DNA of 9,587 nucleotides, from positions 1-9,587 of the IMG/VR virus record IMGVR_UViG_3300011888_000033. One strand, written 5' to 3'. This DNA is from a virus (Duplodnaviria; Heunggongvirae; Uroviricota; Caudoviricetes). The notes beneath the pieces are model-generated. The model was not told where the DNA came from. It was given only the letters and a program-made list of their open reading frames with translations, and made no database searches. This document shows, piece by piece, positions 1 through 8,195 of the stretch (its first letter is position 1; each line of letters begins with the position of its first letter). The translations under genes were made by a program, and so were the position numbers.

Positions 1-153
1 GCATGTTTTTGTGGTCAGGTTACGAATATATAGTTTTCGCTTTTTAATATTGTTTGCCGAGGCAATATATGTCCGGCCTTCATGAAGAACATAATCGCCA
101 GGAGTCACACACTGACGTGGTATTTCATCAGTTCCGAAGTGATGTGCAATCAT
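1..153 (-). CDS. kilR: KilR-like killing protein (FtsZ inhibitor of Rac prophage); 3' end lies beyond the window
   Basis: Reverse complement of 1..153 translates from the ATG at 153..151 as [51 protein letters not shown] and runs off the window edge; this matches my recollection of the Rac KilR N-terminus. An in-frame ATG four codons upstream (165..163) is an alternative start. Absent from the ORF track because it is partial. Confidence 0.7.
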
Positions 154-594
154 AATTATCTCCATTTTTACAAATGAACTTTGTTGATGCGGTGCCTGGT
201 GCCTCCAGGTGACTGCAACCAGTTAACAATTACAGTCGGCTTTCCCACCCAAACCAATAAGGACTAACATGACTTTTAACTGTGCCACGTGCGCTTAGCC
301 GCATTCACCGCATCACAAAATTCACTTTAAAAAGGGCGGACATCAGCCGAACTTCAAGAAAAAAACTGATGCCGCCAGGACTACACACAGCAATGTCGTT
401 ATTTACAACCGGAGGCGCACTCCCTCCATTTAAATTTAACAGACAAGACCGACTCTTTATGGATATCGGAAATGCGCCTTCGTGTTGTGCCCGGTTTTAT
501 TTCACCACCTCCGGGCTTCGGTGGTCTCGGCTATACCCCTACAGCGAGAGCTTGTGTTAACATTTCAATACCCTTACAGTTGAGAGTTATTGAT

Positions 595-5184: not shown

Positions 5185-5369
5185 ATACTCCTGATTATAT
5201 GAGTCATCCTGCTGCAGTTGTGACCAATATGATCGGTTGTGCAGAGTTCTTCAGATAGGGGTAATGAAAACTGCGGTGATTTGTATTCGCTGCAGTTAAT
5301 ATAAACTCGTCGAATTTTTTCATGAAATGTGATCTTAGTCATATTTATATCACGTCTATTTATCAGGTT

Positions 5370-5385
5370 CTGATGAAATCATCAG
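5370..5385. promoter_or_regulatory. Perfect 16-bp palindrome CTGATGA-AA-TCATCAG upstream of the 689-aa gene (candidate operator)
   Basis: 7+2+7 perfect dyad, 52 bp upstream of the ATG at 5438, within an AT-rich leader. ATCAGG also appears at 5362..5367 and 5380..5385. Confidence 0.3.
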
Positions 5386-5437
5386 GTGTTAAGATACTAT
5401 TTGTGCTGTCACCTCAATGGGTTAAAAAGGAATCTGG

Positions 5438-7507
5438 ATGAAAGGTAATATTCTTGGGGATATCCGAGCTGAACATGACGAAAAGATGTTGGAAGCTTCA
5501 TTTTGGCAAACAACTGATTATAAAGCTCTTCTCGAATCCTACGATCGATGCATCATTGTTGGCCGCAGAGGAACAGGAAAAAGTGCTCTGGTGCATATGC
5601 TTTCCAAACATTGGCATGCTAAGCCAAAAACCTATGTGATGACTATTAGTCCGGTTGAAGAACAAATTATTGGATTAAGGGATGTTATTTCTTTATTTGG
5701 TGAAAATTACTTACATATAAAAGCCGGTAGCAAGTTAGCATGGCGATATGCTATTTATATGGAGCTGCTTTCTGAGATCGCAAGTCATTACAAGATGAAA
5801 AACGATCTTGACTACAAAAGTGTAGAGTCGCATTTATTATCTTGGGGACCGAAGAGACAAAATATAAGTAGCAAAATAAGAAAAAAATTGAACGCTATTC
5901 TCGATGATAACAAAAATATAAAACCAGCTACAAGAATAGCCGAATTATCCGATAAATTTGAACTTGACTTATTGGAAGAGGTGATAGAAGAAGCAATTTC
6001 GAAGTCAAATAATCAATTTGTTATTTTTGCTGATAGGCTTGATGAAGGCTATACACCGGATAATCTTGGTGTTGCAATAGTTGATGGTTTCATTCAGGCT
6101 GTGATTGATATAAAACAAAATATGAATGAAAAGGTTATTGCCTTTGCATTTGTTAGAGATAATATTCATCGAGCCATATCAAAAATGGACCCTGATTTTA
6201 CTCGAAATATTGAAGGGCAAGTACTGAGATTACATTGGGATGAATATAACTTGTTTAATCTTGTATGCAATAGAATGAGGGTCGCTTTTAACTCAACCAT
6301 TGAGAACAACACGAGGGTGTGGAATGCTTACACCGCAAATGAATTACAGTCTAATACCGGTTTTAAAGAAACATTGAAACTGACTCTATATAGGCCAAGA
6401 GATATTTTGGTTTTGTTAAATAATGCATTCTTGCGAGCAAACACACATGATCGTAATCGTATTGTCATTGATGACATTCAAGCAACAGCGAATACTATTT
6501 CACAAAATAGACTCAATGATTTGTTAAAAGAATATGAGAATGTATTTCCTGCATTAGATATATTTACATCGCAATTTGCTAATAGCAAACCTTACTACAG
6601 TGTTTCTGAAGCGTCATCTAAGATACAATATGCCCTTGATCTCAATGGCGTTATTGACAAGATGAAAATGCAGGATTTACTTCTTTTTGAAGGGCCAATC
6701 CAGGTGATTCAACGACTTTACAGTGTTGGATTTATTGGGTTGTATAACCAGCAGTCATCTTCATATGTATTTTGCCATGACGGTAAGGAACCTGAAAAAG
6801 AATTTACACCAGATTCAAAATTGCTATTGCATCCATGCTACTGGCTAGCATTAAGTGTTCATGAATCAGAGATGACTCCCGATGCTGCTGATGATATTCA
6901 TGATGAATATGATATTGAGGTCAGCTCTGTTTCCGAAGAGCAGAGGAAACAACGAATCGGTTCGTTGCTCCAAGAACTACATAATATACCTGAAGGACCT
7001 GAAGGTGCTGTCGATTTTGAAGCATGGGCGCTCAAAACTATAAAGTTACTATTTGCTACGAATTTAACGAACATTGAGTTGCATCCCAATAAAAATGGGT
7101 TGCAGCAAAGAGATATTATAGCGACAAATATAGCTGACACTCCAGTTTGGAAGAGAATTCTGACAGATTATCAGACACGGCAAGTTGTTTTTGAAGTGAA
7201 AAACTATAAAACATTAGGTGCTGCAGAATATAGACAGGTAAATTCCTATTTGTTTAAAGACTATGGGCGGATAGCTTTTATCATAAATAGAGATCACACA
7301 GAGAATTTAGAAAAACATAAAGAGCTTACGTGGGTAAAAGAAATTTATGATAATCATAATAAATTAGTTGTGAAGTTACCCTCTAAGTTCCTTGAAAGGC
7401 ATCTGTCAAAAATGAGAAGCCCGCAAAAACATGACGAAGTTAATAAACAATTAGGTAAACTGCTCGATCAGTACATAAGGGTCTATTTAAATAATAAATG
7501 TAAGTAA
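5438..7507 (+). CDS. Candidate anti-phage defence protein: N-terminal P-loop ATPase fused to a C-terminal PD-(D/E)xK-like nuclease (689 aa); family not assigned
   Basis: Single long track ORF with AAGGA RBS 6 nt upstream. Visibly AT-rich relative to flanking prophage genes. Walker A GRRGTGKS (aa 42-49, nt 5561..5584). Walker B-like VIFADRLDE (nt 6020..6046). C-terminal motif DFE(528)AWALK ... RD(559)IIATN ... VVFE(586)VK(588)NYK (nt about 7013..7201) fits the E/D/ExK catalytic pattern of restriction-endonuclease-fold nucleases. Followed by an intrinsic terminator. Confidence 0.75.
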   Translation: MKGNILGDIRAEHDEKMLEASFWQTTDYKALLESYDRCIIVGRRGTGKSALVHMLSKHWHAKPKTYVMTISPVEEQIIGLRDVISLFGENYLHIKAGSKLAWRYAIYMELLSEIASHYKMKNDLDYKSVESHLLSWGPKRQNISSKIRKKLNAILDDNKNIKPATRIAELSDKFELDLLEEVIEEAISKSNNQFVIFADRLDEGYTPDNLGVAIVDGFIQAVIDIKQNMNEKVIAFAFVRDNIHRAISKMDPDFTRNIEGQVLRLHWDEYNLFNLVCNRMRVAFNSTIENNTRVWNAYTANELQSNTGFKETLKLTLYRPRDILVLLNNAFLRANTHDRNRIVIDDIQATANTISQNRLNDLLKEYENVFPALDIFTSQFANSKPYYSVSEASSKIQYALDLNGVIDKMKMQDLLLFEGPIQVIQRLYSVGFIGLYNQQSSSYVFCHDGKEPEKEFTPDSKLLLHPCYWLALSVHESEMTPDAADDIHDEYDIEVSSVSEEQRKQRIGSLLQELHNIPEGPEGAVDFEAWALKTIKLLFATNLTNIELHPNKNGLQQRDIIATNIADTPVWKRILTDYQTRQVVFEVKNYKTLGAAEYRQVNSYLFKDYGRIAFIINRDHTENLEKHKELTWVKEIYDNHNKLVVKLPSKFLERHLSKMRSPQKHDEVNKQLGKLLDQYIRVYLNNKCK

Positions 7508-7516
7508 TTCAATCTT

Positions 7517-7548
7517 TACCGAAAGATCATGTATCTTTCGGTATTTTT
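7517..7548 (+). terminator. Rho-independent terminator of the 689-aa gene
   Basis: Perfect 11-bp stem TACCGAAAGAT (7517..7527) / ATCTTTCGGTA (7533..7543) with 5-nt loop CATGT, then TTTTT (7544..7548). Begins 10 nt after the stop codon. Confidence 0.6.
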
Positions 7549-7639
7549 AAGTGAGAGTAATCAAAATCGTAATGAGAGCTATATAATAATCTGTATAGAT
7601 TAATTTACGAACGATTCAACATTTACCGTTATTATGACG

Positions 7640-7765
7640 GTGCAGGTTGCAAGGAAAGACCTCTGCGAGGTACGAATCCGAACCGACCAGACGGAGGTCG
7701 CTGTCTTCACAGCTTACGAACTTGGGGAGTAAGAGGACCAGCGGGGAGAAATCCCCGCAACCTCT
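7640..7765 (+). other. GC-rich hairpin-dense non-coding element inside the AT-rich island (candidate structured RNA); strand and function unknown
   Basis: No credible ORF. 7-bp stem with GAAA tetraloop (7741..7758). Hairpin GACCTC.../...GAGGTC (7658..7665 with 7692..7699). Hairpin CTTAC/GTAAG (7713..7717 with 7729..7733). Possible closing helix AGGTT/AACCT (7644..7648 with 7759..7763). A perfect TATAAT sits at 7582..7587 upstream. Confidence 0.25.
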
Positions 7766-8195
7766 GATGTATTATGCATCCTCAACGCAGCCACAGTTAA
7801 CCTGATTGGCGGGTTTACTTCATCTGTAAATATTTTTATAAAAATAATGCCCACGCACAGCATAAAACAAAAAGTATTACAGATAAAAAAGGAACGTAAT
7901 GTACAGATTTGTTGTTTTCCATATTTACTCACCTTAATATGATTAACCCTGATAGGGCTGTTATTTCAGCGGTTTTCAAATGAGATATTATGGTGATCTG
8001 ACAAATTTGCATAACATTAAAATTTAATTTGTTTAACCGCTTTTAATAATAAGCGTTGTTTGTATCCCAGCAATCTGTTGTTTGGTCTTTATTCCATTAA
8101 GGTGGGGGCTTTACACTGGAACCAGTTTATTTATACTTTATACGTCAGCCTGAACAACTGGCATCTGCTGCACTGCGCCATCGAGAGATTGAGAA

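What the first reader, a model, noticed from the sequence alone, without database searches (positions are those of the whole stretch)
7640..7765. GC-rich multi-hairpin element downstream of the defence gene: possible structured RNA
Within otherwise AT-rich non-coding DNA there is a roughly 125-nt GC-rich block that can form three local hairpins (one a 7-bp stem capped by a GAAA tetraloop) enclosed by a terminal helix (7644..7648 with 7759..7763). A perfect TATAAT lies about 55 nt upstream (7582..7587), and the defence gene's terminator precedes it, so it could be an independent small transcript. It might be a regulatory or cofactor RNA linked to the adjacent system, an sRNA, or a gene remnant. 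The fold is hand-derived and unverified.
Basis: seen in the sequence. Interest (0 to 1): 0.45.

Follow-up and report, generated by a model that had tools for sequence, protein, structure and literature searches.

The report
Truncated hok toxin gene remnant
The GC-rich hairpin block is the leftover rear two-thirds of a hok toxin gene (type I toxin-antitoxin) in a Rac-like E. coli prophage; its front half was replaced by the neighbouring ATPase gene cassette, so most of its hairpins are inherited hok-mRNA structure, not a new RNA gene.

Summary
Window 7640-7765 is 57% GC between 29% and 35% GC flanks. It folds into the described hairpins better than all 200 shuffles (z = -2.97).

It is not a new structured RNA. 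It is a 5'-truncated hok (Hok/Gef) pseudogene with its 3'UTR, spanning 7622 to about 7825:
- Pfam HOK_GEF matches the translation (E 1.6e-14, profile positions 11-42 of 42).
- NCBI's PGAP pipeline already annotates the identical locus as "Hok/Gef, missing N-terminus".
- Alignment with intact hok/mok/sok loci at the same prophage position shows homology starting at 7622.

The hok promoter, 5' regulatory elements, sok gene, hok start codon and first ~15 codons are absent from the window.

Two of the three hairpins are well conserved across 42 hok loci from five genera (95-98% paired), and the middle one less so (84%). The enclosing helix is not conserved (57%, with central pairs present in 2-3 of 42). 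It arises because the block joins two hok lineages, with a crossover between 7652 and 7685.

Homologues of the ATPase gene elsewhere carry no hok remnant, so the block is not a cofactor of that gene. This is ordinary and already annotated.

The parts
7517..7543 (+). Intrinsic terminator of the upstream 689-aa Sll1717-family P-loop ATPase gene (5438-7507). Part of the cassette that replaced the hok 5' half.
   Evidence: The terminator scan finds an 11-bp stem, 5-nt loop and T run. The sequence is shared at 97% with sister locus L010 and absent from intact hok loci.
7582..7587 (+).
   Evidence: Read from the sequence. Not listed among promoter-like sites.
7622..7732 (+). 5'-truncated hok coding remnant, equivalent to Hok codons ~16-51 plus the TAA stop at 7730-7732. 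The frame is open from 7604, but there is no start codon for a full-length Hok and no Shine-Dalgarno sequence.
   Evidence: Pfam HOK_GEF E 1.6e-14, profile 11-42 of 42. PGAP pseudogene 'missing N-terminus' at window 7625-7732. Alignments A1 and A2. Translation FTNDSTFTVIMTVQVARKDLCEVRIRTDQTEVAVFTAYELGE*.
7622..7656 (+). Diverged 5' edge of the remnant, which travels with the ATPase cassette.
   Evidence: 91% identical to L010 but only 77% to the intact EC1639 allele, whereas 7657-7816 is 99-100% identical to EC1639. A 17-mer from this piece occurs with hok context only in the four cassette loci of IMG/VR. No closer allele was found in 5426 E. coli genomes.
7625..7641 (+).
   Evidence: RNAalifold consensus columns 13-15 / 21-23 of A4. 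One pair switches CG to UA in 14 sequences.
7644..7763 (+). Enclosing helix AGGTTGC (7644-7650) with GCAACCT (7757-7763). Perfect only in this allele combination.
   Evidence: Only 57.5% of cells are paired across 42 hok loci. The central pairs are present in 2-3 of 42. L010 has two mismatches. The two strands come from different hok lineages.
7658..7699 (+). Hairpin 1, a conserved hok-mRNA stem-loop inside the coding region (GACCUCUGC...GGAGGUC).
   Evidence: Outer stem 95.5% paired and inner stem 86% paired in A4. Recovered by RNAalifold.
7700..7742 (+). Hairpin 2, spanning the end of the hok ORF and its stop codon.
   Evidence: 83.8% of cells are paired for this helix. The family consensus keeps a shorter 7701-7712 hairpin instead.
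7741..7758 (+). GC hairpin GCGGGGA-GAAA-UCCCCGC directly after the hok stop codon. By position it corresponds to the last 3' stem-loop of processed hok mRNA. It also matches the IS186 target motif GGGG(N6)CCCC.
   Evidence: 98% paired across the family, with an AU to GC switch in 8 sequences. The role of the last stem-loop of processed hok mRNA in protecting against 3' exonucleases is described in PMC9841398. An IS421-like element is inserted exactly here in L008, L009 and L006. The target motif is from PMC5009759.
7777..7795 (+). Orphan fbi-equivalent element (CATCCTCAACGCAGCC). In intact loci this segment pairs with the tac element at the mRNA 5' end. The tac partner is missing here.
   Evidence: RNAduplex of the 5' end against this 3' segment gives -29.3, -32.2 and -17.6 kcal/mol in intact L003, L005 and L007. 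The tac/fbi model is from PMC9841398. The 5' region is absent from the window.
7800..7825 (+). Position of the hok terminator. It is degenerate in this allele (AACCTGATTGGCGGGTTTAC against AACCCGCTTCGGCGGGTTTTT in Rac and K-12 hokD).
   Evidence: Alignment A1. Not called by the terminator scan. The intact EC1639 allele has the same sequence.

Best explanation

Related prophages carry an intact hok/mok/sok locus between a variable cargo region (downstream of the DUF1627 gene) and the DUF1367-DUF1364-Q genes. Here a cassette consisting of an AT-rich Sll1717-family P-loop ATPase gene and its terminator has replaced the cargo and the front of the hok locus. The missing parts are the hok promoter, the tac and ucb elements, the mok start, the Sok target and sok gene, the hok Shine-Dalgarno sequence, the ATG and about 15 codons of the transmembrane helix.

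What remains is hok codons ~16-51, the 3' stem-loop, the fbi-equivalent element and a degenerate terminator.

They are GC-rich because hok is GC-rich relative to the AT-rich cassette and downstream spacer. The enclosing helix is an accident of mosaicism. Its 5' strand (7644-7650) belongs to a diverged hok piece that travels with the cassette. Its 3' strand (7757-7763) belongs to an EC1639-type hok allele joined by homologous recombination inside the conserved hok core (7652-7685).

Shown: identity, truncation point, absence of the 5' half, family conservation of two hairpins and partial conservation of the third, non-conservation of the enclosing helix, the mosaic structure, and the lack of linkage to ATPase homologues.

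Inferred: that the remnant has no function of its own today, and that hok served as the right-hand crossover site when the cassette spread.
For: - Similar DNA is annotated hok, hokD, hokW or mok in 78 phage records and in 5425 of 5426 E. coli genomes.
- The 100% identical locus in FDAARGOS_497 is annotated by PGAP as 'Hok/Gef family protein; incomplete; missing N-terminus'.
- Pfam HOK_GEF scores 53.6 bits against a cut-off of 22 and covers only profile positions 11-42.
- Alignments with intact loci show homology starting at 7622, with unrelated sequence upstream. The loci are Rac 442/2, Rac-SA53, 933W hokW, Ec1120 and EC1639, all in the same position before DUF1367.
- Rfam RF01794 models the hok mRNA 5' region. 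It scores 99-113 bits on intact loci and gives nothing in the window.
- blastn finds no hok 5' half anywhere in the window, so this was a replacement and not a simple insertion.
- Family conservation: hairpin 1 is 95.5% paired, the GC hairpin 98%, hairpin 2 83.8% and the enclosing helix 57.5%.
- The identity pattern is mosaic.
- ATPase homologues at 65-78% nucleotide identity share only the ORF and have no hok remnant.
- No -35 accompanies the TATAAT. There is no Shine-Dalgarno sequence before the internal ATG at 7634.
Against: - No expression data were available, so transcription of the remnant cannot be excluded. It could come from the weak TATAAT or from read-through of the early-right operon.
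- The exact junction is 100% identical in 41 E. coli genomes. This fits recent spread but gives no information on selection.
- The fold is significantly better than shuffles. That would also be expected of a functional RNA, although it is fully explained by hok ancestry.
Confidence: 0.88

Rival explanations
1. An independent small structured RNA (sRNA, or a cofactor or regulator of the adjacent ATPase). It would be transcribed from the TATAAT at 7582-7587 and fold as a three-hairpin domain closed by the 7644-7650 / 7757-7763 helix.
For: The fold z-score is -2.97. A perfect -10 hexamer lies 55 nt upstream and the preceding gene has its own terminator. The TATAAT is retained in sister locus L010.
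Against: - The promoter has no acceptable -35 or TG extension.
- The downstream terminator is degenerate.
- No Rfam family matches, even at E <= 10 on the 341-nt stretch.
- The closing helix has two mismatches in L010 and is unsupported in the family.
- ATPase homologues in eleven other loci have no such element.
- Every well-conserved stem is accounted for as inherited hok mRNA structure.
Confidence: 0.04
2. The remnant is retained because it is useful in cis. One possibility is that the conserved hok core acts as the right-hand homology arm that lets defence or cargo cassettes move between Rac-like prophages. Another is that its stable 3' stem-loops act as RNA-stabilising or pausing structures within the early-right transcript running towards Q.
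For: - The same cassette and 5' edge are joined to two different hok 3' alleles (window and L010), with the crossover inside the invariant AGGAAAGACCTCTGCGAGGT core.
- The region upstream of hok holds different cargo in every related prophage examined: L003, L004, L006 and L007.
- The remnant has the same orientation as the early-right genes.
Against: Use as a crossover site describes history rather than a selected function. Any conserved flank would serve, and only two allele combinations were seen. Nothing tests an effect on transcript stability or termination.
Confidence: 0.07
3. A shortened Hok-derived peptide is still made: 32 aa, MTVQVARKDLCEVRIRTDQTEVAVFTAYELGE, from the ATG at 7634.
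For: An in-frame ATG at 7634 is created by a G to A change relative to intact alleles. The C-terminal Hok domain is intact.
Against: There is no Shine-Dalgarno sequence upstream (tttaccgttatt). Most of the transmembrane helix is missing. The ATG lies inside a conserved hairpin. PGAP calls the locus a pseudogene.
Confidence: 0.01

Closest known systems
Intact prophage hok/mok/sok loci at the same genomic position (Rac 442/2, Rac-SA53, E. coli EC1639 and Ec1120; hokW-sokW of 933W/Sp5)
   Same: - The Hok C-terminal coding sequence is the same: 100% identity to EC1639 over 7657-7733 and 81-86% to the Rac and 933W alleles.
- The 3' stem-loop and the fbi-equivalent element are the same.
- Except for 933W hokW, which sits in a different neighbourhood, these loci share the downstream neighbours DUF1367, DUF1364 and Q.
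   Different: The window lacks everything 5' of codon ~16: the promoter, tac/ucb, the mok start, the Sok target and sok gene, and the hok SD and ATG. RF01794 scores 99-113 bits on the intact loci and gives nothing here.
hokD (relF) of the Qin prophage, E. coli K-12
   Same: Another chromosomal prophage hok locus that has lost its 5' regulatory region to an upstream replacement (relBE). It is about 85% identical to the window over 7622-7816.
   Different: In hokD the breakpoint lies just upstream of the hok SD, so the full 51-aa ORF survives. Here the breakpoint lies inside the ORF, so no Hok can be made.
hok/sok of plasmid R1 (the reference system for hok mRNA folding)
   Same: The architecture described for R1 is a structured mRNA with a tac/fbi 5'-3' fold-back and a protective last 3' stem-loop in the processed form (PMC9841398). 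It maps by homology onto the retained 3' elements. The tac-fbi duplex is computed for intact relatives.
   Different: R1 hok is a distant family member and was not aligned here. The window copy retains only the 3' partner elements, so the fold-back switch cannot operate.
IsrK Hfq-binding sRNA (Rfam RF01394, Salmonella Gifsy-1)
   Same: The hok 3'UTR of the Rac 442/2 allele (GC hairpin plus terminator) gives a sub-threshold match: 33.2 bits against a gathering score of 50.
   Different: The window gives no match even at E <= 10. The match is below threshold and is probably a generic hairpin-plus-terminator resemblance. The IsrK paper PMC4825925 shows zero occurrences of 'hok' in the search table.

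Membership tests
Hok/Gef toxin gene family (by descent) | Protein-level homology to the Hok/Gef domain | tested here: met
   Pfam PF01848 scores 53.6 bits (cut-off 22), E 1.6e-14, but only over profile positions 11-42 of 42. NCBIfam Hok models score below their cut-offs because of the truncation.
Hok/Gef toxin gene family (by descent) | Nucleotide homology and synteny with annotated hok loci | tested here: met
   81-100% identity to hok, hokD and hokW over 7622-7816. Same position upstream of DUF1367, DUF1364 and Q.
[quoted passage not shown] | Complete Hok ORF (about 50 aa) with a start codon and N-terminal transmembrane helix | tested here: not met
   The frame opens after a stop at 7601-7603 and homology begins at codon ~16. 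There is no start codon for a full-length protein. PGAP states 'missing N-terminus'.
[quoted passage not shown] | Sok antisense RNA gene and its target, the mok leader, and the tac/ucb 5' elements | tested here: not met
   RF01794 gives no hit in the window at E <= 1 (whole window) or E <= 10 (7560-7900). The positive controls score 99-113 bits. blastn finds no 5' half in the window.
[quoted passage not shown] | 3' stem-loop and an fbi element able to pair with the mRNA 5' end | tested here: inconclusive
   The 3' stem-loop (7741-7758) and the fbi-equivalent segment (7777-7795) are present by alignment. The tac partner is absent, so the defining 5'-3' pairing cannot form.
Independent structured small RNA gene | Own promoter and terminator | tested here: not met
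   The TATAAT has no -35 and no TG extension and is not called. No terminator is called between 7544 and 8037 on the + strand.
Independent structured small RNA gene | The structure that defines the domain (enclosing helix) is conserved or covaries in related sequences | tested here: not met
   57.5% of cells are paired. The central pairs are present in 2-3 of 42 sequences. There are two mismatches in the only diverged copy of the truncated locus, L010.
Independent structured small RNA gene | Detectable discrete transcript | not testable with these tools
   No expression data are available.
Cofactor or regulatory RNA of the Sll1717-family ATPase | Co-occurrence with the ATPase gene across contexts | tested here: not met
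   Eleven IMG/VR loci have ATPase homologues at 65-78% nucleotide identity. They share only 5438-7511 with the window and have no hok-like sequence downstream.
Known Rfam families, tRNA and tmRNA | Covariance-model or ARAGORN match | tested here: not met
   No tRNA or tmRNA. No Rfam match in the block.

The most novel reading that the evidence does not exclude
The orphan hok 3' domain might be transcribed and act in trans. It has stable hairpins and an fbi-equivalent element but no tac partner. It could pair through that element with the 5' tac of the other hok mRNAs that E. coli carries (median two hok-like places per genome), modulating their activation. It could also act as an Hfq- or ProQ-bound sRNA. 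That would make a toxin-gene fragment a regulator of its paralogues.
Probability: 0.03. Interest if true: 0.5.

Novelty: already known. Interest (0 to 1): 0.07.

Why it matters
Mainly as a negative result. A strong RNA-fold signal in a GC-rich island next to a candidate defence gene turns out to be the fossil of a highly structured toxin mRNA, and RefSeq already labels it a Hok/Gef pseudogene. It shows that remnants of structured mRNAs can mimic novel non-coding RNAs in fold-based scans.

A secondary point is that the remnant marks the right-hand boundary of a cargo replacement in a variable region of Rac-like prophages. The invariant hok core was the crossover point that joined the same cassette to two different hok alleles.

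Tried and rejected
- tRNA or tmRNA: none.
- Any Rfam family in the block: none at E <= 1 on the whole window, none at E <= 10 on 7560-7900.
- IsrK-like sRNA: a sub-threshold hit exists only on the Rac 442/2 hok 3'UTR, not on the window.
- Sigma-70 promoter at the TATAAT: no -35, not called. Promoter-like sites in the region are no more frequent than in shuffles.
- Simple insertion splitting hok: rejected, because no hok 5' half is present elsewhere in the window.
- Linkage of the block to the ATPase gene: rejected.
- Search for an intact hok carrying the diverged 5' piece 7622-7656: none in 5426 E. coli genomes, where the next best is 86% identical. None in IMG/VR, where the other matches to the 17-mer are unrelated sequences. 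The source allele remains unknown.
- 'The hok mRNA family' (PMID 23324554) could not be retrieved. The element names therefore rest on PMC9841398 and on my own alignments.

Full report
**Observation**

The block exists as described.
- Window 7640-7765 is 57% GC. The flank to the left (7508-7639) is 29% GC and the spacer to the right (7766-8195) is 35% GC.
- RNAfold of 7630-7775 on the + strand gives -51.6 kcal/mol against -40.1 +/- 3.9 for dinucleotide shuffles (z = -2.97, 0 of 200 as good).
- The - strand also folds better than chance (z = -2.59).
- The MFE structure has three stem-loops (7658-7699, 7700-7742, 7743-7756) enclosed by a 7-bp helix, 7644-7650 with 7757-7763.
- The 7-bp GAAA-capped hairpin is at 7741-7758.
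- The TATAAT at 7582-7587 and the upstream gene's terminator at 7517-7543 are both present.
- The TATAAT has no acceptable -35 and was not called as a promoter.

**Identity**

The window is a Rac-like lambdoid prophage of E. coli. It is 100% identical to strain FDAARGOS_497, where the gene order is racR, ydaS/T/U/V, DUF1627, a 689-aa 'P-loop ATPase, Sll1717 family', then the block, then DUF1367, DUF1364 and DUF1133/Q.

Evidence that the block is a hok fragment:
- blastn of 7560-7830 hits sequences annotated hok, hokD, hokW, mok, gef or relF in 78 phage records and in 5425 of 5426 complete E. coli genomes. The matches always start at query position 63, which is window 7622.
- In the identical genome, PGAP annotates window 7625-7732 as 'Hok/Gef family protein; incomplete; missing N-terminus'.
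- The in-frame translation of 7604-7732 is FTNDSTFTVIMTVQVARKDLCEVRIRTDQTEVAVFTAYELGE*. It matches Pfam HOK_GEF at 53.6 bits (cut-off 22), covering profile positions 11-42 of 42.

**What is missing**

Intact hok/mok/sok loci sit at the same place, before DUF1367-DUF1364-Q, in Rac 442/2, Rac-SA53, Ec1120 and EC1639. They were aligned together with hokW of 933W and hokD of K-12, which lie in other neighbourhoods. Homology to the window begins at 7622 and everything upstream is unrelated.

The Rfam model RF01794 ('sok') actually covers the first 157 nt of hok mRNA, from tac to the hok start. It scores 99-113 bits on three intact loci. It gives nothing in the window at E <= 1, or at E <= 10 on 7560-7900.

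blastn of the upstream parts of four intact loci against the window finds only the DUF1627 gene. The hok 5' half was therefore deleted or replaced, not displaced.

No full-length Hok can be made. The internal ATG at 7634 has no Shine-Dalgarno sequence and would lack most of the transmembrane helix.

**The hairpins are hok-mRNA structure, but the enclosing helix is not**

I aligned the equivalent segment (hok nucleotide ~40 to 110 nt past the stop) from 42 distinct loci. They come from Escherichia, Kluyvera, Pseudocitrobacter, Citrobacter, Pantoea and Photorhabdus.

RNAalifold recovers a small hairpin at window 7627-7638 (one pair switches CG to UA in 14 sequences), hairpin 1, a short hairpin at 7701-7712, and the GC hairpin after the stop codon (AU to GC in 8 sequences).

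Scoring the window's own MFE structure on that alignment gives:

| Helix | Cells paired |
|---|---|
| Hairpin 1, outer stem | 95.5% |
| Hairpin 1, inner stem | 86% |
| Hairpin 2 | 83.8% |
| GC hairpin | 98% |
| Enclosing helix | 57.5% |

The two central pairs of the enclosing helix are present in only 2-3 of the 42 sequences.

According to PMC9841398, hok mRNA is held inactive by a 5' tac / 3' fbi fold-back, and the last 3' stem-loop of the processed form protects it from 3' exonucleases. The GC hairpin at 7741-7758 corresponds to that stem-loop by position, which is an inference from homology.

In intact relatives the 5' end and the segment homologous to 7777-7795 form duplexes of -29.3, -32.2 and -17.6 kcal/mol. 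In the window this fbi-equivalent element has no partner.

**Mosaic origin**

IMG/VR holds four copies of this cassette locus and eleven more distant ATPase homologues.

The distant homologues (65-78% nucleotide identity) share only the ORF 5438-7511 with the window and have no hok-like sequence downstream. The remnant therefore belongs to the prophage backbone and not to the ATPase module.

One copy, L010, has the same junction and the same 5' hok piece, joined to a different hok 3' allele. Identities by segment:

| Window segment | Window vs L010 | Window vs intact EC1639 |
|---|---|---|
| 7480-7621 | 97% | unrelated |
| 7622-7656 | 91% | 77% |
| 7657-7733 | 92% | 100% |
| 7734-7816 | 69% | 98.8% |

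The crossover therefore lies between 7652 and 7685, within or just past the near-invariant AGGAAAGACCTCTGCGAGGT core. In L010 the helix has two mismatches. In intact EC1639 the 5' strand reads GGTAAC and also mismatches.

No intact hok with the diverged 5' piece was found in E. coli genomes or in IMG/VR. The exact junction occurs at 100% identity in 41 E. coli genomes.

**Mechanism and verdict**

The best-supported account has three steps.
1. A cargo replacement in the variable region upstream of hok removed the toxin's promoter, its regulatory RNA elements, its antitoxin and its N-terminus. That region holds different genes in each related prophage examined.
2. The surviving 3' two-thirds is an inert pseudogene whose RNA-folding signal is inherited.
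3. The conserved hok core later acted as a homology arm, joining the cassette to different hok alleles.

Transcription of the remnant cannot be excluded without expression data. However, there is no called promoter or terminator, no family match, no conservation of the domain-defining helix, and no linkage to the ATPase gene. An independent RNA gene is therefore unlikely.

The feature is already annotated in RefSeq and belongs to a long-studied family. K-12 hokD is a comparable 5'-truncated locus with a different breakpoint.

Interest is low.

Noticed in passing
window 7743-7756; L008 5305-6670; L006 3120-4480: The post-stop hairpin GGGG(AGAAAT)CCCC matches the IS186 target motif GGGG(N6/N7)CCCC (PMC5009759). 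An IS421-like IS4-family element is inserted exactly there, with a GGGAGAAATCCC duplication. This is seen in two IMG/VR copies of the truncated locus (L008, L009) and in the intact hok of strain Ec1120 (L006). The hok 3' hairpin therefore appears to be a recurrent IS target.
   Followed up: partly
window 334-389 (-) and 146-332 (-): Sub-threshold Rfam matches to DicF (39.1 bits, gathering score 48, E 8e-6) and STnc100 (35.5 bits, gathering score 47, E 7e-5). Both lie on the minus strand at the left end of the window, between kilR and sieB of the Rac-like prophage. They are probably the Rac counterparts of the Qin dicF region.
   Followed up: no
L003 2620-2700 (Rac 442/2 hok 3'UTR): The Rfam isrK model (Salmonella Gifsy-1 Hfq-binding sRNA) gives a weak match to the hok 3'UTR of an intact Rac allele: 33.2 bits against a gathering score of 50. 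The window allele gives none. It may be a generic hairpin-plus-terminator resemblance, or a hint that IsrK descends from a hok 3'UTR.
   Followed up: partly
window 5438-7507: The 'defence gene' is an Sll1717-family P-loop ATPase (NCBIfam 254.7 bits) with an ORC/CDC6-like, STAND-like N-terminus. PADLOC gives only weak partial hits to the candidate families PDC-M36A and PDC-M28C, so a defence role is plausible but not established. The gene is AT-rich (31-40% GC) relative to the prophage backbone (45-55% GC). Homologues in other viral contigs share only the ORF.
   Followed up: partly
window 5185-7621 compared with L003, L004, L006 and L007: The interval between the DUF1627 (ydaW) gene and hok carries different cargo in each Rac-like prophage examined: lygF plus small ORFs; IS1 plus CII-like and other genes; DUF262 plus a TPR protein; DUF977, a Q-family antiterminator and a nucleoid-associated protein. 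It looks like a cargo hotspot.
   Followed up: no
window 7622-7656: This 35-nt 5' edge of the remnant differs at 8 positions from the otherwise identical EC1639 allele. It has no closer intact relative in 5426 E. coli genomes or in IMG/VR, so its source hok lineage is unknown.
   Followed up: yes
window 7766-8195: The AT-rich spacer between the hok remnant and DUF1367 has no annotated gene here or in EC1639. Rac 442/2, Rac-SA53 and Qin carry the small rem gene at the corresponding position.
   Followed up: no
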